Below the pieces are notes generated by a model that searched no databases, had not been told where the DNA came from, and saw only the letters and a list, made by a program, of their open reading frames with translations. From contig JAKLID010000002.1 of the NCBI GenBank assembly GCA_022709795.1, positions 1 through 51,761 on the forward strand: a stretch of 51,761 nt of DNA, written 5' to 3'. Numbering within the stretch: the stretch's first letter is position 1; the number at the start of each line of letters is the position of its first letter. A program made the translations under genes and the position numbers. This stretch comes from Patescibacteria group bacterium (GTDB lineage: Bacteria; Patescibacteriota; Patescibacteriia; UBA2196; GWA2-42-15). Below are positions 10,012 to 50,800 of the stretch, in pieces.

Positions 10012-11217
10012 ATGATGTTTCAATACCGAGGCAAAAATAGAGAGGGCCAGGACGTCGAAGGCTTTATTGAGGGCTCTAATAAAAATGATGCTATTGCCAC
10101 CTTGAGTGATCAGGGTGTTGCCATTCTTTTTTTAGAAGCCCAGTCCAAGAAGAGCGCGCTCAATATTCATCTCCCGTTTTTAAATCGGATTAAAACCAAA
10201 GACTTGGTTTTATTTTCTCGTCAGCTGGCCGTCATGACTACCGCGACTTTGCCGATCGTCCAGGCGCTTCGGATCCTTGTTGATCAGACGGATAATGTTC
10301 AGTTTAAATCGGTTATTTCTGAGATTGCCGATGATGTTGAAGGCGGCGAGCGGCTTTCTAACGCCCTGGAAAGGCATAATAAAATTTTTGGTAATTTTTT
10401 CGTCGCCATGGTCAGATCCGGTGAAACCTCCGGCAGCATTGACAAGGTTTTGAATTATTTGGCTGATGAACAGGAAAAAGATTATGCCCTGGTCAGCAAG
10501 ATCAAGGGGGCTATGATTTATCCAGCTTTTATTTTGGCCGCTTTGGGCGGCGTGGGTTTGATCATGATGGTTTATGTCGTCCCCAAGATCACGGCTATTT
10601 TGGTAGAAACCGGCGGTGAACTCCCCGTGGCCACCAAAATTTTGATTGGCACCAGCGCTTTTCTGGTTCACTGGTGGTGGGCGATTATTATTTTTTTAAT
10701 TGCCATCTTCATCGGATTAAAATACCTTCTGCGTCAGCCAGAGCCTCGCAAAATCTGGGATCATCTCAAGCTCAAATTGCCAGTTTTTGGCAGCTTGTTT
10801 CAACGTATCTATATTGTCCGCTTTACCAGAAGTATGGGCACCCTGGTGGAAGGCGGAGTGCCGATTACCACCTCGCTCAATATTGTCAGCGATATTGTCG
10901 GTAATGCTTTCTACAAAGATATTATTGATCGAACGGCGCGCGATGTTCAGGACGGTAATCCGATTGCTAGTCTCTTTCTTCGGACCAAGGAAATTCCCCC
11001 GATGATCGCCCACATGCTTTCAGTCGGCGAGAAAACTGGTCGGATTGGCGATGTTCTCAATAAAATGACAGATTTTTATGCTCGGGAGATTGAAGGTCTG
11101 GTCGCCAATCTGGTTAGCTTAATCGAGCCTTTGATCATGGTTATTATGGGTGTGGGTGTCGGCATCATGGTAGCGGCGGTTATTACCCCAATGTACAATA
11201 TGTCCTCCGGATTCTAG
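10012..11217 (+). CDS. pilC: Type IV pilus platform protein PilC (GspF family)
   Basis: Two GspF repeats (FSRQLAVMTTATLPIVQAL... and FTRSMGTLVEGGVPITTSL...) and three TM segments. Confidence 0.9.
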   Translation: MMFQYRGKNREGQDVEGFIEGSNKNDAIATLSDQGVAILFLEAQSKKSALNIHLPFLNRIKTKDLVLFSRQLAVMTTATLPIVQALRILVDQTDNVQFKSVISEIADDVEGGERLSNALERHNKIFGNFFVAMVRSGETSGSIDKVLNYLADEQEKDYALVSKIKGAMIYPAFILAALGGVGLIMMVYVVPKITAILVETGGELPVATKILIGTSAFLVHWWWAIIIFLIAIFIGLKYLLRQPEPRKIWDHLKLKLPVFGSLFQRIYIVRFTRSMGTLVEGGVPITTSLNIVSDIVGNAFYKDIIDRTARDVQDGNPIASLFLRTKEIPPMIAHMLSVGEKTGRIGDVLNKMTDFYAREIEGLVANLVSLIEPLIMVIMGVGVGIMVAAVITPMYNMSSGF

Positions 11218-11220
11218 AAG

Positions 11221-11276
11221 CCAGAAACCAGAAACTAGATATTAGTAATCAGAAACAAGATATCAGAAATCAGGGG
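11221..11276. repeat. Left heptad-repeat arm of cassette 1
   Basis: Eight in-phase heptads: ccagaaa|ccagaaa|ctagata|ttagtaa|tcagaaa|caagata|tcagaaa|tcagggg. Confidence 0.8.
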
Positions 11277-11294
11277 GAAAATAAAATTTATTTC

Positions 11295-11669
11295 ATGTCA
11301 CCTCTGCCTTTAAACCAACTTAAAATATATCAATTGAATCGGGAATATAGTCGCGGCGGTTGGCAAATTTATGAGCGTTTGACCTGGGAAATTATTAAAA
11401 CTATGGGGGACCAAATGATTAGAAGTATTGATTCTGTTGGCGCCAATATTGCTGAGGGCTATGGTCGTTATCATTATTTAGACAAAATCAAATTTTATTA
11501 CAATGCTCGCGGTTCATTATTTGAGTCAAAATATTGGCTGGATCTGATGTATGAAAGAAAAATAATAGAATCTGGTTGCTACCTTGCATTAATGAATCTA
11601 TATCAAAACATAGTTAAAGGCCTAAACGGTCTTATCTCTTCCAACTATCGTACCAAGTTCTCTTCCTGA
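11295..11669 (+). CDS. Four-helix-bundle protein (23S rRNA intervening-sequence protein / Avd-like family)
   Basis: SVGANIAEGYGRYHYLDKIKFYYNARGSLFESKYWL is the hallmark central motif of the family. The gene is AT-rich and sits in the loop between complementary repeat arms. Confidence 0.85.
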   Translation: MSPLPLNQLKIYQLNREYSRGGWQIYERLTWEIIKTMGDQMIRSIDSVGANIAEGYGRYHYLDKIKFYYNARGSLFESKYWLDLMYERKIIESGCYLALMNLYQNIVKGLNGLISSNYRTKFSS

Positions 11670-11670
11670 T

Positions 11671-11754
11671 TCCTAGTTTCTAACCTCCGATCCCCCTCGC
11701 TTCTGTATTTTTGTTTGTTTTTCCTGGTTTCTGATATCTGATTTCTGGTTTCTT
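11671..11754. repeat. Right heptad-repeat arm of cassette 1 (complement of 11221-11276)
   Basis: Twelve in-phase heptads, ending ...tttcctg|gtttctg|atatctg|atttctg|gtttctt. ccccct and tttctga/tttctgg are reverse complements of the left-arm words. Confidence 0.8.
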
Positions 11755-11765
11755 TCTTAATTTCG

Positions 11766-11774
11766 TGCTATAAT
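11766..11774 (+). promoter_or_regulatory. Extended -10 (TGcTATAAT) upstream of pilin 1
   Basis: tgctataat lies 118 nt upstream of the ATG at 11892. The identical 9-mer precedes pilin 2. Confidence 0.45.
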
Positions 11775-11891
11775 ATCCTTGTGTGGATAAATAATCGGAA
11801 TTTATTTATTAGTCAACTAAGCTCAAAGGTCGAAATTTTTGTTTAAATAAATAAATCTAGCTAGGTTTATTAGTAAGTTTTTTAAAAAATT

Positions 11892-12386
11892 ATGAAGAAT
11901 AATAAAAAAGGTTTTACCTTGATTGAGTTATTGGTGGTTATCGCCATTATCGGCCTTTTGGCTACTCTTTCCGTGGTCGCCTTGAACAATGCCCGTCAGA
12001 AATCGCGTGATGCCAAGCGCGTCTCCGACATCAAACAAATGCAGACTGCTTTGGAGCTTTATTTTGTGGATCAAAATGCCTATCCTTATTCTGCCGCGGC
12101 CCTTACATTGGGCTCAGCAGATTCCAAGGTATTATGTGCTACAGGCACTGCCGGTGTTGGTTTCAGAGCTGACGCTACTGGCTGCACTACAACATATATG
12201 GGGCAAGTTCCCTCCTCGCCAGTTCCGCCAGCCACTGCTGTTTACACTTATACAAGTTTGACTGCCGGTCTTGGTGCAACATATACGATAACGTTTGGTC
12301 TTGAGGGCCCGACTGGTGGTTTGACATGTACTACTTATAGCACCACCTGTTGCTCCGCCACCCCAAACGGCATTACTTGTACATAA
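11892..12386 (+). CDS. Type IV (major-type) pilin, paralog 1
   Basis: Prepilin leader MKNNKKG|FTLIELLVVIAIIGLLA with Glu5. Six Cys, including a C-terminal LTCTTYSTTCCSATPNGITC. Confidence 0.85.
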   Translation: MKNNKKGFTLIELLVVIAIIGLLATLSVVALNNARQKSRDAKRVSDIKQMQTALELYFVDQNAYPYSAAALTLGSADSKVLCATGTAGVGFRADATGCTTTYMGQVPSSPVPPATAVYTYTSLTAGLGATYTITFGLEGPTGGLTCTTYSTTCCSATPNGITCT

Positions 12387-22255: not shown

Positions 22256-22311
22256 AATTAGTTTTTTGTTTTATTTGTATATTTGTAATTAATTCGTAAT
22301 TCGTAGATAAT

Positions 22312-22746
22312 ATGAAACTCACTATCGTCGGCAGTAGCGCTTTCAAAGAACAAATGCTTGACTACCAAAAAAAATTGGCCGAGCTCGGTCACGAGGGGAT
22401 TGTCCACCCAGATTATCAAGCCTTTATCAATGGCGAAAAGCAGGATATCTGGGATCTGGTCACCCATGGCGAACACGCCAAAGCCAAACGAGACAATAAT
22501 TACATTATGTGGTATCATAACGCGATCCAGAATAGTGATGGCATTCTGGTTTTGAATTTTGTAAAGAAAGGTATTAAAAATTATATTGGCGGCAACACCC
22601 TCATGGAAATTGCTTTTGCCTTTGTTGCTGGCAAGAAAATATTTTTAATCAATCCCATTCCAGAAGACGTTTCTTATGCTGATGAACTCAAAGCCATGGT
22701 GAATGAAGAGAATGTCCTCAACGGCGATTTGGGGAGAATTAAATAA
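22312..22746 (+). CDS. Hypothetical protein, possible nucleoside 2-deoxyribosyltransferase-like fold
   Basis: Small Rossmann-like pattern (MKLTIVGS..., late GGNTLMEIAFAF). The functional assignment is weak. The gene is flanked by heptad arms (cgtaatt|cgtagat upstream; aattacaaatta downstream). Confidence 0.5.
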   Translation: MKLTIVGSSAFKEQMLDYQKKLAELGHEGIVHPDYQAFINGEKQDIWDLVTHGEHAKAKRDNNYIMWYHNAIQNSDGILVLNFVKKGIKNYIGGNTLMEIAFAFVAGKKIFLINPIPEDVSYADELKAMVNEENVLNGDLGRIK

Positions 22747-22860
22747 TTACAAATTATCCATTCCCATCCGTTTGCCATCCGTTCAATCTGTTGTCGCAGT
22801 TGTTTTGAAATTTAAGCATTAGGTATTTTATTAGAAATTAGTAATTAGAAATTTTTTAAG

Positions 22861-24681
22861 ATGCTCTCCAATGTCGAAGAAATAAAATCCAAGCTGGATA
22901 TCGTGGACCTCATCCAGGAATATTTTCCCTTGAAACAAGCCGGAGTGAATTTCAAGGCTACTTGTCCTTTTCATCAGGAAAAGACCCCGTCTTTTATGGT
23001 CTCCCGTGAACGCCAGATGTGGCACTGTTTCGGCTGCAACGAGGGCGGCGACATGTTTGAATTTATCAAAAGAATAGAAAACATTGATTTTCCCGAGGCC
23101 CTGAAAATCTTGGCGACCAAAGCCGGCGTGCAACTCAAATATCAGGACCCCAAAACCACCAGTCTCAAAACCCGGATTTTGGATATGAATGAAAAAGCTA
23201 CCTCTTGGTTTATGAGTCAGTTGATCAATTCCGCCGCCGGAGCTCATGCCCTAAAATATTTAAAGGAAGCCAGAGAATTGGACGACCAAACGATTAAAGA
23301 CTGGCAGCTAGGTTATGCCCTGGATAGCTGGGATGCCCTTGGTGAATATTTACGCAGCCAAAAATTTACCAAAGAAGAAATAATCCAAGGCGGTCTGGTC
23401 GTGACCAAATCAGGCGGTTATGAATATTACGACCGTTTCCGCGACCGTATTATGTTTCCTATTCTTGATTATCACGGCAACATCGTCGGTTTTACCGGCC
23501 GCACCATGAAAGCTGACGAGCAAGCCAAGTATGTCAATACGCCCCAGACCATTGCTTACAACAAATCCGAAGTCATCTTTGGTTTATACCGGGCCAAACA
23601 ATATATCAAAGACGCCGATGCTGTCGTTATCGTCGAGGGCAATATGGATGTCATCGGCTCAGTCAAAGGCGGAGTGAAAAATGTTGTCGCTGTTTCCGGC
23701 ACTGCCCTGACTGAGGAACAGATAAAAATTTTACAACGTTACACCAACAATATTATTTTCTCTTTTGACGCTGATTCCGCCGGCCTGCGCGCTGCCGAAC
23801 GGGCCATTGAGCTCGCCTGGCGCGCCGAAGCCAATGTCAAAGTCGCGGTTATTCCGCACGACCTAGCCAAAGATCCGGATGAATTGGCCAGAAAAGATCC
23901 AGCCGCTTGGCAGCGCTTGGTCGCCGCAGCCGTGCTCGCTATGGACTATTTTTTTAGTCTCAATCTAGCCAGCTACCAGCCGGGCAATATTGAATCCAAA
24001 AAAACAGCTGCCAAAAATTTGCTCAATCTCATTCTCAAATTAGCCAGTCCGATTGAACAGGATTTTTATCTCAAAAAACTGGCGGAAAAATTGGATATCA
24101 ATGAAACCTCTCTGCGTGATGTTTTTTATAAAACCAAAAATAAAACGCTTTCCTCCAAAGCCCCCGCTTCCACTCCCCGCCAGATCCAACCGACCACGGT
24201 GATTGATAAAAAGTCAGCCGTGGCGACTCGTCTTTTGGCTTTCATGCTCTTGGATCGCGATTATGCTGTCTATGTCAGTGAAATATTTTCTCCCCATTAT
24301 TTACCAGCTGCTTGGCAGCCAGTTTACAAAGCCCTAGTCGTCTGTTATACCAGACAAATTTCCGAAGCCAATTTGTCGGCTGACCCCATTGAATACCTAA
24401 TAAAGAAGGATCCTGGTTTGACAAACCTCGCCAATAGCCTGATAATTAAGAAAGAAGAATTGCGCGATCTGTCTTACACCGAAGCGGTTCATGAAATAAA
24501 ACAACACGTCAGCTATTTTAAAAAGGCTTTTGTTCAAGAGAGACAGGCTACTATCAAAGAAGAAATAAAAGCGCTAGAACGCATCACTTCGCCGGGCGAC
24601 GAGGCGCAGACTGAAAAAATCGCCGCGCTCCTCCGGCAATTTAATGAATTATCCGCTGAATTAAATGACACGGATTTTTAA
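22861..24681 (+). CDS. dnaG: DNA primase DnaG
   Basis: Zinc ribbon CPFHQEKTPSFMVSRERQMWHCFGC and TOPRIM motifs EGNMDV and DADSAG. Confidence 0.95.
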   Translation: MLSNVEEIKSKLDIVDLIQEYFPLKQAGVNFKATCPFHQEKTPSFMVSRERQMWHCFGCNEGGDMFEFIKRIENIDFPEALKILATKAGVQLKYQDPKTTSLKTRILDMNEKATSWFMSQLINSAAGAHALKYLKEARELDDQTIKDWQLGYALDSWDALGEYLRSQKFTKEEIIQGGLVVTKSGGYEYYDRFRDRIMFPILDYHGNIVGFTGRTMKADEQAKYVNTPQTIAYNKSEVIFGLYRAKQYIKDADAVVIVEGNMDVIGSVKGGVKNVVAVSGTALTEEQIKILQRYTNNIIFSFDADSAGLRAAERAIELAWRAEANVKVAVIPHDLAKDPDELARKDPAAWQRLVAAAVLAMDYFFSLNLASYQPGNIESKKTAAKNLLNLILKLASPIEQDFYLKKLAEKLDINETSLRDVFYKTKNKTLSSKAPASTPRQIQPTTVIDKKSAVATRLLAFMLLDRDYAVYVSEIFSPHYLPAAWQPVYKALVVCYTRQISEANLSADPIEYLIKKDPGLTNLANSLIIKKEELRDLSYTEAVHEIKQHVSYFKKAFVQERQATIKEEIKALERITSPGDEAQTEKIAALLRQFNELSAELNDTDF

Positions 24682-34573: not shown

Positions 34574-35263
34574 ATGATTGAATGTAAAAACGTCTCCAAA
34601 ATTTATAAAAGTTCGAGTGTGGAAACCACTGCTCTAAAAAATGTTTCTTTTCAGATTAAAGATGGCGAGTTTGTCGCCATTATGGGCCCGTCTGGTTCTG
34701 GTAAATCCACCCTGATGCATATCTTGGGCGCCTTGGATACGCCCACCGCCGGCGAATATTTTTTGGATGGCAAAAACGTTTCTGAGCTTTCCGATGATGA
34801 GCTGGCTGATATTCGTAAGAATAAAATTGGTTTTATTTTTCAGTCTTTTAATTTATTGCCGCGCGCGACCGTACTCCGTAATGTGATGTTGCCTTTGGTT
34901 TATGCCAATGTGGAAAAAAGTCAAAGGGAAGAGCAAGCCAGGGAGGCCTTGGCTGATGCCGGTCTAGATGCCACAAATTATAGCCATCTTTCTAATCAGC
35001 TTTCCGGCGGACAAATGCAGCGGGTGGCCGTTGCCCGCGCGCTGGTCAATAATCCCACACTTATTTTGGCCGATGAGCCGACCGGCAACCTAGATACCAA
35101 AACCGGTGATGTTGTTATGGGTACTTTCCGGGCCCTTAATGAAGAAAAAAAAAGAACCATTGTTATTATTACTCACGAGCGCGACGTGGCTGAATATACC
35201 AATAGGATTATTGAAATTAGGGATGGGGAAATTATTAGGGACAGAGAGATACACAGAGCATAG
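34574..35263 (+). CDS. ABC transporter ATP-binding protein (MacB/LolD-type)
   Basis: Walker [10 protein letters not shown], signature [15 protein letters not shown], Walker [12 protein letters not shown]. Confidence 0.95.
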
Positions 35264-35300
35264 AAGCACAAAAAACACAGAAAACACAAAAGCACAAAAC
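35245..35300. repeat. Left A/C-rich arm of cassette 2 (overlaps the ABC ATPase stop codon)
   Basis: ...aaaaacacagaaaacacaaaagcacaaaac. The reverse complement of the right arm matches cacagaaaaca. Confidence 0.6.
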
Positions 35301-35303
35301 AAT

Positions 35304-35699
35304 ATGTCAACTGAATTCCAAAATAGGCTCAAAACACTAATGGACGAATATATTTATTTTGTCTATTGTGTCACTCAAAAATTTCCGAAAGAAGAATTAT
35401 ATTCCAGTGTCTCTCAATGGCGGAGATCTACTTTATCTATAATATTAAACTATATTGAAGGCTATGCTAGGAAGAAATCACTGGTTCAATTAAATTTTTA
35501 TGAGATATCATATGGTTCGCTCAGAGAATCGAAATATCTTTTATACTTTTCCCATAAAATAAATTTCATTACTAACGAAGAATATAGAAAAGGCTTTGAA
35601 TTAAGTGAAGAAATTGGCAAAATGCTCTGGTCGGAAATAACCAAACTTCAGAATAGTATAGATTACACAAATAAAAATAAAACTCCAATAATTAAGTGA
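35304..35699 (+). CDS. Four-helix-bundle protein (23S rRNA IVS protein / Avd-like family)
   Basis: ILNYIEGYARKKSLVQLNFYEISYGSLRESKYLL matches the family core motif. ATG 35304 is chosen because the upstream part of the ORF overlaps the ABC gene. Confidence 0.8.
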   Translation: MSTEFQNRLKTLMDEYIYFVYCVTQKFPKEELYSSVSQWRRSTLSIILNYIEGYARKKSLVQLNFYEISYGSLRESKYLLYFSHKINFITNEEYRKGFELSEEIGKMLWSEITKLQNSIDYTNKNKTPIIK

Positions 35700-35720
35700 T
35701 TTTTTGTTTTCTGTGATTTT
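35697..35720. repeat. Right arm of cassette 2
   Basis: tgattttttgttttctgtgatttt lies directly before the permease ATG at 35721. Confidence 0.6.
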
Positions 35721-36935
35721 ATGAAATTTACTGATTTATTCCAAGAAACATTTTTCGCCATTTTAGCCAATAAGGTCCGTTCCGGCCTGACTATTTTGGG
35801 TATTGTCATCGGCATCGGCTCAGTCATTGCCATGGTTTCCATCGGCCAGGGTTCAGCCAAGTCCATTACCGACCGTGTTGAATCTCTGGGCACCAACTTA
35901 TTGACTGTTATGCCTGGATCGCAAAGAGGACAACTAGTTCGCGGCGGTATAGGCTCGGCTACTACTCTAGCCTTGGAAGATGCTGAAGCGATTAAAACTG
36001 TCAGCGGCGTTAAAACAGTTGCCCCAACAGTTAGCACTCGCAAACAGATTACTATCAAAGGTAGCAATACCAATAGTTCTATTTACGGCATTGACGCCAG
36101 TTATTTTTCTGTCAAATCAATCACCATGGAGCTCGGTAGCCCGTTTACCGAAATACAAATCAAATCAAAAAACAAAGTCGCTATTATCGGCCCGACCACT
36201 CGTGATACTTTGTACGGTGAAGGCTATGATCCGGTCGGTCAAAAAATTCGAATTGACGGCCAGGAATATACCGTGATTGGCGTTACTGAGAGTAAAGGTG
36301 GCACTGGCTTTGGCAGCTCTGACGATTTGGTTTACGTTCCTCTTGGTACTGCCCAGCAATATCTGATCGGCAACAGTAAACTTAGTAATATCAGCGTGGA
36401 AGTGATCAGCGCGGAATTGATGGATTCTACTGAAGAGGCGATTTCCGCTTTATTACTACAACGCCACAATATCAGCGACGCCGCCAATGCCGACTTTAGC
36501 ATTATGAATCAAGCCGATATGCTCTCCGCTATGACTGATATGACCAGTACTTTGACTTTACTCCTTGGCTCCATCGCCGGCATTTCCCTCATTGTTGGCG
36601 GTATTGGTATTATGAATATGATGTTAACTACTGTCACTGAGCGCACTCGTGAAATCGGTCTGCGCAAAGCCATTGGCGCCAAGCGTGGTGATATCAGTCT
36701 GCAGTTTTTGGCCGAAGCAGTCACCCTGACTTTTATCAGTGGTATTATTGGTATTTTACTCGGCTGGCTCTTGAGTTATCTTGTTGCCAGATTTGGCAGT
36801 ATCACCACGAGCATCTCGCCCCAGTCAGTTATCCTGGCTTTTGGTGTTTCCGGCGCCATCGGTATTATTTTTGGTTATTACCCAGCCCGCCGTGCTGCCA
36901 AGTTAAATCCGATTGAAGCCCTAAGATATGAATAA
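35721..36935 (+). CDS. ABC transporter permease (MacB/FtsX-type)
   Basis: TM1, a large periplasmic domain, and a C-terminal FtsX domain with TERTREIGLRKAIGA. Confidence 0.9.
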   Translation: MKFTDLFQETFFAILANKVRSGLTILGIVIGIGSVIAMVSIGQGSAKSITDRVESLGTNLLTVMPGSQRGQLVRGGIGSATTLALEDAEAIKTVSGVKTVAPTVSTRKQITIKGSNTNSSIYGIDASYFSVKSITMELGSPFTEIQIKSKNKVAIIGPTTRDTLYGEGYDPVGQKIRIDGQEYTVIGVTESKGGTGFGSSDDLVYVPLGTAQQYLIGNSKLSNISVEVISAELMDSTEEAISALLLQRHNISDAANADFSIMNQADMLSAMTDMTSTLTLLLGSIAGISLIVGGIGIMNMMLTTVTERTREIGLRKAIGAKRGDISLQFLAEAVTLTFISGIIGILLGWLLSYLVARFGSITTSISPQSVILAFGVSGAIGIIFGYYPARRAAKLNPIEALRYE

Positions 36936-37060
36936 CAATTTCCAAATCCCAATTTCCAATTTCCAAATAAATTCCAATAATCAATTTCCAATTAGCCAAA
37001 TTAATATTTTGAATTTGTAATTTGGGGTTTATTTGGAAATTGTTTCTTAGCGATTGGAGC
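36936..37060. repeat. Heptad-phased inverted-repeat spacer without ORF (empty stem)
   Basis: caatttc|caaatcc|caatttc|caatttc|caaataa|attccaa|taatcaa|tttccaa|ttagcca, then the complementary arm ...gaatttgtaatttggggtttatttggaaattg. Confidence 0.7.
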
Positions 37061-39908: not shown

Positions 39909-39951
39909 TGTTATACTAAATACTTAATACTAAATACTTAATACCAAAAAT

Positions 39952-44645: not shown

Positions 44646-44673
44646 ACCCCTCTTACCAAAAGAGGGGTTTTTG
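44646..44673 (+). terminator. Intrinsic terminator after the orphan pilin
   Basis: cccctct-taccaaa-agagggg plus ttttt. Confidence 0.7.
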
Positions 44674-44680
44674 GTATAAT
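44672..44680 (+). promoter_or_regulatory. Extended -10 (TGgTATAAT) upstream of cassette 3 / ligA
   Basis: tggtataat overlaps the terminator T-run. Confidence 0.4.
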
Positions 44681-44701
44681 AAAGACAAGAAAATCAAGCT
44701 C

Positions 44702-44750
44702 CAAGATACAAGATACAATTTTCAAATAATATCCAATATTAAAATTACCA
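44702..44750. repeat. Left heptad arm of cassette 3
   Basis: caagata|caagata|caatttt|caaataa|tatccaa|tattaaa|attacca. Confidence 0.75.
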
Positions 44751-44760
44751 ATAGTTTGCT

Positions 44761-45123
44761 ATGGATTGCTTGCCTCCCCATTATGATCTGGAAGAAAGAA
44801 CTACTCATTTTGCCAAAAGGGTTGTTGGATTGTGTGTGGCTCTGCCCAAGAATGAAATTAATCGCCCGTTAATCAGCCAGGTAATTAGATCAGCTGGTTC
44901 AATAGGGGCTAACTACAGAGAGGCCAATGATGCGCTAGGAGACAAAGATTTTATTCATAGAATAAAAATTGCGCGTAAAGAGTGCAAAGAAACACTGCAT
45001 TGGCTGGAAATTGTAGAAGAGGCCAATCCAGTGCTTGTCATGAGGATGCAGAATTTAAAACAGGAAGCGGTAGAATTGAAAAATATTTTATCATCAATTA
45101 TTATCAAAAAGGGAAAGAAGTAG
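44761..45123 (+). CDS. Four-helix-bundle protein (23S rRNA IVS protein / Avd-like family)
   Basis: RSAGSIGANYREANDALGDKDFIHRIKIARKECKETLHWLEI is the family core motif. Confidence 0.85.
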   Translation: MDCLPPHYDLEERTTHFAKRVVGLCVALPKNEINRPLISQVIRSAGSIGANYREANDALGDKDFIHRIKIARKECKETLHWLEIVEEANPVLVMRMQNLKQEAVELKNILSSIIIKKGKK

Positions 45124-45156
45124 TGATTTAAAGTTGAAATTTACAATTTATCCTAG

Positions 45157-47244
<2,088 letters not shown>

Positions 47245-49704: not shown

Positions 49705-49753
49705 ATTTATTTTGGGTTTGAAAATTTAAAATTAAAAATTAAAAATTATTTTT

Positions 49754-50711: not shown

Positions 50712-50800
50712 TTATAATTTTTAAATAAATTCTAATTTTTAATGTTTAAAAATTTAGATTTAAGTTTTATTTATAAAATTAAAAATTAAAAATTATTTTT
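50712..50800. repeat. Heptad-phased AT-rich inverted-repeat spacer (empty stem)
   Basis: ...tttaatg|tttaaaa|atttaga|tttaagt|tttattt|ataaaat|taaaaat|taaaaat|tattttt. The 26-mer aaaattaaaaattaaaaattattttt (50775-50800) is identical to 49728-49753. Confidence 0.6.

What the first reader, a model, noticed from the sequence alone, without database searches (positions are those of the whole stretch)
11217..11757. IVS-like cassette 1: four-helix-bundle gene in the loop of a heptad stem, inserted between pilC and the major pilin
The 124-aa gene (11295-11669) belongs to the family first found inside 23S rRNA intervening sequences, which also includes the DGR accessory protein Avd. In rRNA IVSs the flanking inverted repeats form a stem that RNase III excises. 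Here the same architecture sits inside a protein-coding operon, directly after the pilC stop. The arms are 56 nt (left) and 84 nt (right). Outer words pair with outer words (ccagaaaccagaaa with tttctggtttct) and inner words with inner words (cagaaatcaggggg with ccccctcgcttctg). This suggests an mRNA-level intervening element whose excision could uncouple pilC from pilin expression, or a mobile cassette that targets or creates such stems.
Basis: partly seen in the sequence, partly recalled or inferred. Interest (0 to 1): 0.8.

Follow-up and report, generated by a model that had tools for sequence, protein, structure and literature searches.

The report
IVS-like four-helix-bundle gene cassette
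A small conserved gene, enclosed by two mutually complementary arms of short tandem repeats, has been inserted between the pilC and pilin genes of a Patescibacteria (Kuenenbacteria-like) genome; it belongs to a large class of such cassettes, built like the ORF-bearing intervening sequences of 23S rRNA but sitting between protein-coding genes, for which I found no published description.

Summary
The ORF at 11295-11669 is a genuine PF05635/TIGR02436 four-helix-bundle protein. It lies in the loop of a predicted 56-bp stem whose arms are heptad arrays. This is the strongest flank pairing of 56 genes in the window.

The unit is an insertion. Three related Kuenenbacteria have only 10-25 nt between the pilC stop and the pilin promoter. 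Closer relatives carry the cassette, a truncated cassette or a scar.

The layout is shared by the family. About 60 homologous loci, both other copies in the window, and a second subfamily found at five different genomic contexts all have locus-specific complementary tandem-repeat arms filling the spacer. A second presence/absence site lies between an ABC ATPase and its permease. There the cassette appears to have been exchanged together with about 150 nt of flank.

The ORFs are under purifying selection (dN/dS 0.05-0.14 in nine of eleven pairs).

RNase III excision, inferred from the rRNA elements, is plausible but untested. Two tests for a strand-specific RNA signature were not significant. 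The pilin gene has its own conserved promoter downstream, so "uncoupling pilC from pilin" is not needed as an explanation.

Verdict: a real element, a new variant of a known kind.

The parts
10012..11217 (+). pilC (T2SSF) gene. Its stop codon TAG (11215-11217) abuts the left arm.
   Evidence: Pfam T2SSF E 7.1e-59. Orthologues in Kuenenbacteria genomes are 67-86% identical.
11218..11278 (+). Left (5') arm: about 8 A/G-rich heptads (CCAGAAA, CCAGAAA, CTAGATA, TTAGTAA, TCAGAAA, CAAGATA, TCAGAAA, TCAGGGG) with a 21-nt super-period.
   Evidence: TRF period 7 x 8.3 and period 21 x 2.5. Inverted repeat I1/I2. Pairs with 11691-11758 in the minimum-free-energy fold. Absent from the empty sites in L006, L008 and L009.
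11295..11669 (+). Four-helix-bundle protein gene (124 aa), the cargo in the loop.
   Evidence: PF05635 E 1.7e-22 and TIGR02436 E 5.5e-23. AlphaFold2 model pLDDT 92.9 with four helices. Foldseek hit to 2GSC, TM 0.86/0.93. dN/dS 0.11 against the L021 orthologue.
11691..11758 (+). Right (3') arm: T/C-rich complement of the left arm (CCCCCTCGCTTCTG ... CCTGGTTTCTGATATCTGATTTCTGGTTTCT).
   Evidence: TRF 11724-11753, period 7 x 4.3. Pairs with the left arm. Arm duplex -61.9 kcal/mol.
11766..11774 (+). Extended -10 promoter (TGCTATAAT) of the pilin gene, just outside the cassette.
   Evidence: Read from the sequence. TGnTATAAT is conserved in the same position in L003, L004, L008, L009 and L021, and L006 has TATGTTATAAT; this holds whether or not the cassette is present. 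The generic scan missed it because there is no -35 match.
11775..11891 (+). Conserved pilin leader (GTGGATAAAT ... AAAGGTCGAAAT ... AAATCTAGCTAGGTTTATTAG).
   Evidence: The blocks are conserved in L003-L009 and L021. No Rfam family matches.
11892..12386 (+). Major pilin gene (N-terminal methylation motif).
   Evidence: Pfam N_methyl E 5.6e-10.
35242..35733 (+). Sister cassette 2. Left arm 35242-35299 (CACAGAR/CACAAAA repeats), four-helix-bundle ORF 35304-35699, right arm 35700-35720. It sits between the ABC ATPase gene and the MacB-type permease gene (ATG 35721). The last ATPase codons and its stop codon lie in the arm.
   Evidence: PF05635 E 1.9e-23. Fold. Empty sites in L101 and L104-L108, and an occupied orthologous site in L102/L103.
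44670..45252 (+). Sister cassette 3. Left arm about 44684-44734 (CAAGATA repeats), four-helix-bundle ORF 44761-45123, right arm 45192-45243. It follows a pilin-like gene with its terminator and ends at the probable ligA start (ATG 45244).
   Evidence: PF05635 E 1.6e-18. 51-bp closing stem, z -4.3. The same arm type occurs at four other genomic contexts.
36930..37045 (+). Hairpin without an ORF whose two arms are homologous to the arms of cassette 3's subfamily. Either a mini derivative or a scar.
   Evidence: 21-bp stem, z -3.97. Alignments with W3-type arms.

Best explanation
**What it is.** Positions 11218-11758 form one discrete inserted unit. It is a conserved, functional four-helix-bundle gene bracketed by a 5' arm of A/G-rich short tandem repeats and a 3' arm that is their reverse complement. 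It belongs to a large class of such cassettes in Patescibacteria that occupy the short spacers between co-directional genes.

**Shown**
- The family membership of the ORF.
- The complementary arms, here and family-wide.
- That the arms come and go together with the ORF.
- That the ORF is under purifying selection.
- That each subfamily carries its own arm type at many different sites.
- That at a second site the cassette appears to have been exchanged between close relatives together with about 150 nt of flanking gene.

**Inferred mechanism**
1. The cassette has no recognisable promoter of its own here, so it is transcribed by read-through from pilC.
2. In the transcript the arms pair into a duplex of about 56 bp that closes off the ORF.
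3. As in the homologous ORF-bearing intervening sequences of 23S rRNA (Coxiella, Leptospira), this duplex is cut by RNase III.
4. Cutting releases the four-helix-bundle mRNA as a panhandle and leaves the neighbouring host transcripts intact. This is what makes insertion between genes tolerable.
5. The stem also brings the upstream stop codon and the downstream start codon to its base.

**Inferred spread.** The cassette moves mainly by homologous recombination through the conserved flanking genes and only rarely colonises a new spacer. What the protein itself does is unknown. By its Avd-like pentameric RNA-binding fold it most plausibly binds structured RNA.
For: **ORF identity**
- HMM matches above the curated cutoffs.
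- Sequence matches to solved structures 2RLD and 2GSC.
- Predicted four-helix bundle whose best structural match is 2GSC, TM 0.86/0.93.

**Stem in the window**
-. It is the strongest flank duplex of 56 genes.

**Family-wide arms**
- In 76 homologous loci the flank duplex has a median of -38.0 kcal/mol, against -26.7 for mismatched partners.
- In DNA alignments, 29 of 64 loci exceed the 95th percentile of the null.
- The repeat unit differs from locus to locus, yet the two arms of a locus match each other.
- The 5' arm is purine-rich in 56 of 57 loci.
- The arms fill the spacer. The median distance is 65 nt from the upstream stop to the ORF's ATG and 48 nt from its stop to the next start. Both neighbours are co-oriented with the ORF in 44 of 50 loci.

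**Insertion at this site**
- Empty in L006, L008 and L009.
- Occupied in the window, L001/L002, L005 and L021.
- Truncated cassette in L003 and a scar without an ORF in L004.

**Second polymorphic site, with flank co-transfer**
-. L102 (occupied) and L107 (empty) are 91-100% identical in nearly all windows of the 2.2 kb upstream (two dip to 77-79%).
- Identity falls to 66-84% in the last ~150 nt, where L102 resembles the window's occupied allele.

**A unit with its own termini**
- The W3 subfamily has the same arm type at the junctions pilin-ligA, DUF3467-dnaJ, GT4-GT4, ileS-recO and after the MacB permease.

**Selection**
- dN/dS is 0.05-0.14 in nine of eleven pairs (0.28 in the two closest), against 0.07 for pilC.

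**Precedent for processing**
- The Coxiella IVS has a 28-bp terminal stem and tandem heptamers just upstream of the homologous ORF, and RNase III cuts it within the stem (PMC4990558).
- rRNA insertions in candidate phyla radiation (CPR) bacteria carry 23S_rRNA_IVP ORFs.

**Stop/start juxtaposition**
-.

**Avd as an RNA stem-loop binder**
- 10.1101/2023.10.23.563531.
Against: - There is no direct evidence of transcription or cleavage.
- There is no excess of G:U over A:C mismatches in the arms (85 vs 101, p 0.27).
- The sense arm duplex is only slightly more stable than the antisense one, and not significantly (35 vs 29 loci, p 0.15). Complementarity could therefore be maintained at the DNA level.
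- Co-orientation with the neighbours (88%) is not far above the roughly 75% I estimate from the strand runs in the gene map.
- Cassette 3 and several relatives sit behind a terminator, so they need a promoter of their own.
- No identical cassettes were found at different sites among 80 loci, so recent mobility is not shown.
- A cyanobacterial plasmid member of the protein family has no arms.
- Cassette 2's whole-region fold is weak (z -1.5).
Confidence: 0.5

Rival explanations
1. **DNA-level element.** The arms act as DNA: hairpin or cruciform ends used for insertion or recombination, or simply a quasi-palindrome. Their complementarity is kept up by mutational processes, namely replication slippage plus template switching or gene conversion between the arms, and not by selection on an RNA stem. 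The RNA stem would then be a by-product.
For: - There is no wobble (G:U) excess and no significant sense-over-antisense stability.
- The arms evolve by gain and loss of whole repeat units in both arms together: 8, 5 and 4 heptads in the orthologous W1, L005 and L021 arms.
- Whole-arm duplications occur (L028, L040).
- Collapsed hairpin scars are left where the ORF is gone (L004; window 36930-37045).
Against: - The arms have a strict polarity relative to the ORF, with a purine/A-rich 5' arm in 56 of 57 loci. The same polarity appears in the unrelated GxxExxY cassettes. This points to a strand-specific, transcript-level constraint, although inheritance from a common ancestor could also explain it.
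- No recombinase or transposase is associated with the cassettes, there are no target-site duplications, and the termini are not shared between subfamilies.
- The homologous rRNA elements are demonstrably processed as RNA (PMC4990558).
Confidence: 0.25
2. **Cis-regulatory repeats for the cargo gene.** The tandem repeats are binding sites for the (probably pentameric) four-helix-bundle protein itself, giving autoregulation or RNP assembly. Alternatively the long-range stem limits translation of the ORF on read-through transcripts, as fold-back inhibition does in insertion sequences.
For: - Avd, the closest characterised structural relative, is a pentamer that binds RNA stem-loops and long-range duplexes next to its own gene.
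- Each paralogue in the window has its own repeat unit: CAGAAAY, CACARAA and CAAGATA.
- Arm type is subfamily-specific and conserved across sites in the W3 subfamily.
- The inner end of the arm lies a median of 14 nt from the ATG.
Against: - An unrelated small protein family (GxxExxY, PD-(D/E)XK) sits in the same kind of arms. The arms are therefore not specific to four-helix-bundle proteins.
- Co-inheritance alone would produce the protein-arm correlation.
- There are no binding data.
Confidence: 0.15
3. **Chance.** The repeats are ordinary low-complexity filler of AT-rich intergenic DNA, and the pairing is accidental.
For: - The window contains other short tandem arrays not tied to four-helix-bundle genes, for example 39913-39948 and 49721-49748.
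- The mismatched-partner null is itself fairly negative (-26.7 kcal/mol).
Against: - W1 is the strongest flank duplex of 56 genes and lies beyond the 1st percentile of the null.
- The arms are absent from the empty sites.
- The arms are locus-specific yet complementary in about 60 loci.
- The polarity is 56 of 57.
Confidence: 0.03
4. **Avd of a diversity-generating retroelement.** The gene is the accessory protein of a nearby DGR.
For: - The fold resembles Avd (4DWL TM 0.77/0.88; DGR RNP 8UB7).
- Cassette 2's protein gives weak bAvd and DivGenRetAVD hits.
Against: - Those hits are below the curated cutoffs: 34.8 against 40 bits and 26.8 against 80 bits. W1 has none.
- The neighbours are pilC/pilin, ABC ATPase/permease and pilin-like/ligA. 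No reverse transcriptase gene is adjacent.
Confidence: 0.02

Closest known systems
ORF-bearing intervening sequences (IVS) of 23S rRNA (Leptospira, Coxiella burnetii 'S23p' IVS, and IVS-type insertions in the rRNA of candidate phyla radiation (CPR) bacteria)
   Same: - Same protein family in the loop (PF05635/TIGR02436).
- Same size class, about 430-540 nt.
- Terminal inverted repeats that form a long stem around the ORF.
- Tandem heptamers immediately 5' of the ORF: GACAGAT x3 in Coxiella, CCAGAAA-type here.
- No re-ligation is needed because the host RNA works in pieces.
   Different: - It sits between protein-coding genes, not in an rRNA helix.
- Both arms are built from tandem repeats, with periods of 7 to 11 nt across the family.
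- The ORF is under strong purifying selection, whereas the Coxiella ORF is reported as decaying and probably untranslated (PMC4990558).
- RNase III cleavage is shown for the rRNA elements and is only inferred here.
Avd, the accessory protein of diversity-generating retroelements (PDB 4DWL, 8UB7)
   Same: - Same four-helix-bundle fold (TM 0.77-0.88).
- Avd is a pentamer that binds RNA stem-loops, and a long-range duplex forms between the 3' end of avd and sequence downstream of the template repeat.
   Different: - No reverse transcriptase and no template/variable repeats nearby.
- Sequence scores are below the Avd-specific cutoffs.
- About 10% identity.
Free-standing homing-endonuclease genes and intron-less homing (e.g. 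the seg/mob genes of T4-like phages)
   Same: - Small ORF cassettes wedged into spacers between conserved genes.
- Presence/absence polymorphism at the same site in close relatives.
- Co-conversion of adjacent flank, seen at the ABC site.
   Different: - The four-helix-bundle protein has no recognisable nuclease domain.
- The arms have no counterpart in those systems.
- A sibling cassette class in the same genome does encode a PD-(D/E)XK-family protein (GxxExxY).
REP/REPIN-RAYT systems and MITEs
   Same: - Intergenic location, inverted repeats that form hairpins, and hairpin derivatives without an ORF beside copies that carry a protein gene.
   Different: - No transposase-like protein and no target-site duplication.
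- The arms are tandem-repeat arrays that differ between subfamilies.
- No swarm of near-identical copies was seen.
STRR heptanucleotide tandem repeats of heterocystous cyanobacteria (from my own knowledge, not tested here)
   Same: Short (7-nt) tandem repeats in intergenic regions, sometimes in both orientations.
   Different: I know of no reported obligatory pairing around a specific ORF family. The one cyanobacterial four-helix-bundle gene inspected here (Pseudanabaena plasmid) had no arms.

Membership tests
Four-helix-bundle / 23S_rRNA_IVP protein family (PF05635, TIGR02436) | Scores above the curated cutoffs of the family HMMs | tested here: met
   PF05635: 80 bits against a cutoff of 33.8. 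TIGR02436: 81.3 bits against 24. W2 and W3 also pass.
Four-helix-bundle / 23S_rRNA_IVP protein family (PF05635, TIGR02436) | Up-down four-helix bundle like Xcc0516 (2GSC) and BT_0352 (2RLD) | tested here: met
   AlphaFold2 model with pLDDT 92.9 and four helices. Foldseek: 2GSC TM 0.86/0.93 and 2RLD TM 0.74/0.85. Profile against PDB sequences: 2RLD 4e-16 and 2GSC 1e-8.
Four-helix-bundle / 23S_rRNA_IVP protein family (PF05635, TIGR02436) | Conserved motif (G)xxRxxxSxxxNxxE reported for the family (PMC3936711) | tested here: met
   W1 has R43-x3-S47-x3-N51-x2-E54. S47, N51 and E54 are invariant in alignment A1. The first position is Q40, not G.
Four-helix-bundle / 23S_rRNA_IVP protein family (PF05635, TIGR02436) | Homopentameric ring | not tested
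   Only a monomer was modelled.
rRNA intervening sequence (IVS) | Inserted in a helix of a 23S (or 16S) rRNA gene | tested here: not met
   Rfam finds only tRNAs in the window. The flanks are pilC and a pilin gene.
rRNA intervening sequence (IVS) | Terminal inverted repeats that form a stem enclosing the ORF | tested here: met
   56-bp closing stem.
rRNA intervening sequence (IVS) | Excised from the precursor by RNase III cutting within the stem | not testable with these tools
   Needs transcript end mapping or an in vitro cleavage assay. Sequence proxies were not significant.
DGR accessory protein Avd | Scores above the Avd-specific model cutoffs (NF033474 DivGenRetAVD, PF22296 bAvd) | tested here: not met
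   W1 has no hit. W2 scores 26.8 against 80 bits and 34.8 against 40 bits.
DGR accessory protein Avd | Encoded next to a DGR reverse transcriptase with a template/variable repeat pair | tested here: not met
   The neighbours of all three cassettes were identified and none is a reverse transcriptase.
Transposon / MITE | Terminal repeats conserved among copies, target-site duplication, and near-identical copies at several sites | tested here: not met
   The arms differ between the three cassettes of the window. There is no duplication at either polymorphic site. No identical cassettes at different sites were found in 80 loci. Arm type is, however, conserved within the W3 subfamily across five contexts.
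Homing-endonuclease gene cassette | Encodes a site-specific nuclease | tested here: not met
   Only the four-helix-bundle domain was found. PADLOC gave nothing.
Homing-endonuclease gene cassette | Presence/absence at one site in close relatives, with co-conversion of the flanks | tested here: met
   ABC ATPase-permease site, L102 against L107. pilC-pilin site.

The most novel reading that the evidence does not exclude
rRNA intervening sequences would be only the best-known special case of a broader class of bacterial 'intercistronic intervening elements', not described in the literature I could search. These are selfish small-ORF cassettes whose cargo is a four-helix-bundle protein or a GxxExxY PD-(D/E)XK protein. 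Their inverted tandem-repeat arms would make them harmless wherever the host RNA can function in pieces.

The long-range stem would do two things. It would be excised by RNase III, and it would place the upstream stop codon next to the downstream start codon so that operon expression and translational coupling survive a ~0.5-kb insertion. The elements would spread by homing-like recombination, with the PD-(D/E)XK cargo as a candidate mobilising nuclease.
Probability: 0.25. Interest if true: 0.85.

Novelty: new variant of a known kind. Interest (0 to 1): 0.68.

Why it matters
- **Origin of rRNA intervening sequences.** ORF-bearing intervening sequences in 23S rRNA have been known for about 30 years, without an explanation of their origin, their mobility or the role of their ORF. 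Here the same ORF family, in the same stem-loop layout, is abundant between ordinary protein-coding genes in Patescibacteria. There are three copies in 52 kb, and a capped metagenome scan confirmed 555 relatives.
- **The element is a unit.** It has subfamily-specific termini, empty sites, scars and derivatives without an ORF, and its protein is under selection. The rRNA cases then look like one target among many, and the protein looks functional and not like a relic.
- **Concrete test systems.** The pilC-pilin and ATPase-permease junctions are available with and without the cassette. They can be used to test RNase III processing, effects on operon expression, and binding of the protein to its own arms.
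- **Annotation.**
  - The arms can supply stop codons and false N-terminal extensions to neighbouring genes.
  - Four-helix-bundle genes found inside cas or other operons may be insertions and not functional partners.

Tried and rejected
1. **Strand-specific RNA signature.** In unbiased DNA alignments of the arms from 64 loci, G:U-type mismatches numbered 85 and A:C-type 101 (p 0.27). The sense arm duplex was more stable than the antisense one in 35 loci against 29 (mean -1.8 kcal/mol, p 0.15). Neither result supports selection on the sense RNA. I therefore keep RNase III processing as an inference only.
2. **Recent transposition.** An all-against-all comparison of 80 loci found no near-identical cassettes with unrelated flanks. 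Pairs with high identity are the same locus in related strains.
3. **Own promoter or terminator.** The consensus scan found none in the arms of cassette 1. The pilin promoter was recognised by conservation instead.
4. **Known RNA family.** Rfam gave only tRNAs.
5. **Defence-system membership.** PADLOC gave no hits.
6. **Phage origin.** There are no relatives of this subfamily in IMG/VR viral contigs.
7. **Universality of the arms in PF05635.** The only plasmid-borne relative (Pseudanabaena) has no arms. The arms therefore characterise the Patescibacteria subfamilies (and, per the literature, the rRNA elements), not the whole Pfam family.
8. **DGR/Avd reading.** Rejected because the scores fall below the cutoffs and no reverse transcriptase is adjacent.
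9. **Strict 'heptad' rule.** Rejected. Periods of 7/14, 8, 10 and 11 occur, around a recurring AGAAA/GAAAT/GATAT core.
10. **Literature.** Eight full-text searches found no description of non-rRNA four-helix-bundle cassettes with repeat arms. The library lacks most subscription journals, so an earlier description cannot be excluded.
11. **A 144-aa ORF flanked by arrays (22312-22746).** I examined it as a possible further cassette. The fold was not significant (z -0.59) and no protein family matched.


Full report
**1. The observation**

The 124-aa ORF at 11295-11669 is real. It scores well above the curated cutoffs of PF05635 (23S_rRNA_IVP; E 1.7e-22) and TIGR02436 (four helix bundle protein; E 5.5e-23). 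A profile of the subfamily hits the solved structures 2RLD and 2GSC. An AlphaFold2 model (pLDDT 92.9) is a four-helix bundle whose best structural matches are 2GSC (TM 0.86/0.93) and 2RLD, followed by the DGR protein Avd.

The gene follows pilC (T2SSF, 10012-11217) and precedes a pilin gene (11892-12386).

The flanks are inverted repeats: 11218-11273 against 11703-11758, 56 nt at 71%, with a 31-nt core at 84%. Both are period-7 tandem arrays. The RNA fold of 11205-11775 closes with a 56-bp stem (z -3.0).

The flank-to-flank duplex energy is -63.7 kcal/mol. That is the strongest of 56 genes in the window, where the others average -27.6 with sd 7.7. It also lies beyond the 1st percentile of a null that pairs arms from different homologous loci.

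**2. Organism and empty sites**

PilC relatives identify the organism as a relative of Candidatus Kuenenbacteria, in the Patescibacteria. The state of the pilC-pilin junction in related genomes is as follows.

| Locus | PilC identity to the window | State of the junction |
|---|---|---|
| L006 | 72% | Empty: only 10-25 nt between the pilC stop and the TGnTATAAT promoter |
| L008, L009 | 67% | Empty, as L006 |
| L001/L002 | same or nearly the same sequence | Occupied, orthologous cassette |
| L005 | 86% | Occupied, orthologous cassette |
| L021 | 84% | Occupied; four-helix-bundle protein 80% identical |
| L003 | 84% | Truncated four-helix-bundle remnant inside arms of a different type (GATATT), downstream of a leftover CAGAAA-type array |
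| L004 | 85% | Scar without an ORF that folds into a 9-bp hairpin made of arm remnants |

The arms are absent from the empty sites, so they belong to the insert.

The pilin promoter (TGCTATAAT, 11766-11774) and a conserved leader lie downstream of the right arm in all of these genomes. The cassette therefore sits at the 3' end of the pilB-pilT-pilC transcription unit. It does not lie between two cistrons that share a promoter.

**3. A family-wide architecture**

The window holds two more, very divergent, four-helix-bundle genes: 35304-35699 and 44761-45123, which are 31% and 24% identical to the first. Each is enclosed by its own complementary repeat arms.

A metagenome scan with a subfamily alignment returned 80 loci. 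They show the following.

- **Complementary flanks.** The ORF flanks are far more complementary than mismatched partners. The median duplex energy is -38.0 against -26.7 kcal/mol, and 36% of loci lie beyond the 5th percentile of the null. In DNA alignments, 29 of 64 loci exceed the 95th percentile of the null.
- **Tandem repeats.** Nearly every locus shows short tandem repeats upstream and their reverse complement downstream. The unit differs from locus to locus (AGAAATT, AGTAATT, GATATTA, TAGAAATACGA and others), yet the two arms of one locus match each other.
- **Period.** The period is 7/14, 8, 10 or 11, around a recurring AGAAA/GAAAT/GATAT core.
- **Polarity.** The 5' arm is purine-rich in 56 of 57 loci (A 48%, C 6.5%).
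- **Position.** The arms fill the spacer. The median distance is 65 nt from the upstream stop to the ATG and 48 nt from the stop to the next start. Both neighbours are co-oriented in 44 of 50 loci, although I estimate the baseline at already about 75% from the strand runs in the gene map.

**4. The ORF is functional**

Orthologous pairs give dN/dS of 0.05-0.14 in nine of eleven pairs, and 0.28 in the two closest. pilC between the same genomes gives 0.07. The subfamily alignment has invariant Q40, S47, N51 and E54. This contrasts with the Coxiella IVS ORF, which is reported as decaying and probably untranslated (PMC4990558).

**5. A second polymorphic site, and how the cassette moves**

At the junction between the ABC ATPase and the MacB permease, the two kinds of allele differ as follows.

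| Allele | Loci | Spacer or insert | ATPase |
|---|---|---|---|
| Empty | L101, L104-L108 | 6-12 nt spacer | 236 aa, with a conserved C-terminal tail |
| Occupied | window, L102/L103 | Orthologous four-helix-bundle cassette | 228-229 aa; last codons and stop codon are supplied by the left arm |

The empty state is therefore ancestral. The insertion replaced about 40 nt of target, and there is no target-site duplication.

L102 (occupied) and L107 (empty) are 91-100% identical in nearly all windows of the 2.2 kb upstream; two windows dip to 77-79%. Identity falls to only 66-84% in the last ~150 nt before the cassette, where L102 shares derived states with the window's occupied allele. This is what is expected if the cassette is exchanged between relatives by homologous recombination together with a piece of flank. 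It resembles co-conversion in homing.

No near-identical cassettes at different sites were found among the 80 loci. Within the third cassette's subfamily, however, the same arm type (CAAGATACAA / CAATTTCCAAAT ... TTTATTTGGAAATTGTATCTTG) occurs at pilin-ligA, DUF3467-dnaJ, GT4-GT4 and ileS-recO junctions in different lineages. It also occurs in a hairpin without an ORF just after the window's MacB gene (36930-37045). ORF plus arms is thus a discrete unit with its own termini that has colonised many spacers over evolutionary time.

**6. Mechanism**

The homologous ORF-bearing IVS of Coxiella has a 28-bp terminal stem and tandem heptamers directly upstream of the ORF, and RNase III cuts it inside the stem (PMC4990558). 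rRNA insertions in candidate phyla radiation (CPR) bacteria also carry 23S_rRNA_IVP ORFs.

The most economical reading has three steps.

1. Cassette 1 is transcribed by read-through from pilC. No promoter was detected in the left arm.
2. Its arms pair.
3. RNase III excises the four-helix-bundle mRNA and leaves the host transcripts usable.

At the ABC site the stem base also places the ATPase stop within a few nucleotides of the permease ATG. This could preserve coupling, but that is inference only.

Against a purely RNA-level view:

- Mismatches show no G:U excess (85 vs 101).
- The sense duplex is not significantly more stable than the antisense one (p 0.15).
- The arms change by whole repeat units in both arms together: 8, 5 and 4 heptads in three orthologues.
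- Some cassettes sit behind terminators.

DNA-level maintenance of the palindrome therefore remains a serious rival. The strict polarity of the arms argues for a strand-specific constraint, but inheritance from a common ancestor could also produce it.

The protein's role is unknown. Its Avd-like fold, and Avd's binding of RNA stem-loops, suggest that it binds RNA.

**7. Comparison with known systems**

| System | Resemblance | Why it is not a member |
|---|---|---|
| ORF-bearing rRNA IVS | Protein family, architecture and heptamers | It is not in rRNA |
| DGR Avd | Fold | Scores below cutoffs; no reverse transcriptase nearby |
| Transposon or MITE | Inverted repeats, hairpin derivatives | No transposase, no target-site duplication, no identical copies |
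| Homing-endonuclease cassette | Population behaviour at polymorphic sites | No nuclease domain |

Eight full-text searches found no description of such cassettes outside rRNA. One paper lists four-helix-bundle genes wedged inside cas operons, for example between cmr3 and cmr2, and treats them as associated functions (PMC3936711). In the light of this analysis they may be insertions.

**8. Verdict**

The cassette/IVS-like reading holds. The 'uncoupling of pilC and pilin' is unnecessary, and RNase III excision is untested.

I file it as a new variant of a known kind, with interest 0.68.

Noticed in passing
window 2654-3150 (- strand; ORF 2709-3098): A 129-aa GxxExxY / PD-(D/E)XK_3 gene (TIGR04256 E 1.5e-26; PF13366 E 9.9e-27) is wedged between the LemA and M48 peptidase genes. 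It has GCCGAAC-type repeats upstream and GTTCCGC repeats downstream, the same inverted tandem-repeat layout with an unrelated cargo. The flank duplex is -43.2 kcal/mol, the 4th strongest of 56, but the whole-region fold has z -0.12. Two more GxxExxY genes in other Patescibacteria loci (L065 1041-1439, L076 1744-2130) also have such arms.
   Followed up: partly
window 35242-35733: Second four-helix-bundle cassette, between the ABC ATPase and MacB permease genes. The ATPase's last codons and its stop codon are encoded by the left arm, and the ATPase is 7-8 residues shorter than in genomes with the empty site. The permease ATG lies at the base of the stem.
   Followed up: yes
window 44670-45252: Third four-helix-bundle cassette. 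It lies behind the terminator of a pilin-like gene and a GGTATAAT motif. The longest ligA ORF starts at 45160, inside the right arm. The conserved LigA N-terminus begins at ATG 45244, so the first 28 codons of that ORF are probably an artefact created by the arm.
   Followed up: partly
window 36930-37045: Hairpin without an ORF (21-bp stem, z -3.97) directly after the MacB permease stop. Both of its arms are homologous to the arms of the third cassette's subfamily. It is a mini derivative or the scar of a lost cassette.
   Followed up: yes
window 11766-11891; also L003-L009, L021: The pilin gene has a conserved extended -10 promoter and a leader with conserved blocks (GTGGATAAAT, AAAGGTCGAAAT, AAATCTAGCTAGGTTTATTAG) across Kuenenbacteria. 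No Rfam family matches. It may be an undescribed regulatory leader.
   Followed up: no
L003 2405-2745; L004 4201-4345: The same pilC-pilin site in two relatives. L003 has a truncated four-helix-bundle remnant (36 codons) inside GATATT-type arms (a stem of about 22 bp), preceded by a leftover CAGAAA-type array; this suggests successive or nested occupancy. L004 has only a 9-bp hairpin made of arm remnants.
   Followed up: partly
window 22256-22862; 39913-39948; 49721-49748 and 50775-50795: Further short tandem arrays not tied to four-helix-bundle genes. A 144-aa ORF with no family match (22312-22746), lying before dnaG, is flanked by TAATTCG-type and ATTAGAA arrays (fold z -0.59). ATACTAA x5 lies before pspC. 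AAAATTA arrays flank a glutaredoxin-DsbA gene pair.
   Followed up: partly
L087, L089, L092, L097: These loci share a 100% identical cassette ORF and upstream flank, but the sequence downstream of the cassette is only 81-94% identical. The cause could be a recombination breakpoint at the cassette border or a chimeric metagenome assembly at the repeats.
   Followed up: no
L109 2486-2866 (Pseudanabaena sp. PCC 7367 plasmid): This four-helix-bundle gene (37% identical) lies between a ParA-operon gene and a dcm methylase gene and has no tandem-repeat arms. The arms are therefore not universal in PF05635.
   Followed up: yes
L028, L040, L046, L070, L091, L055, L038/L039: Variants of the arm architecture: tandem duplication of a whole ~55-nt left arm (L028, L040), very long arrays on both sides (L046, L070, L091), and small GC-rich hairpins nested between repeat units (L055, L038/L039, L085/L086).
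   Followed up: no
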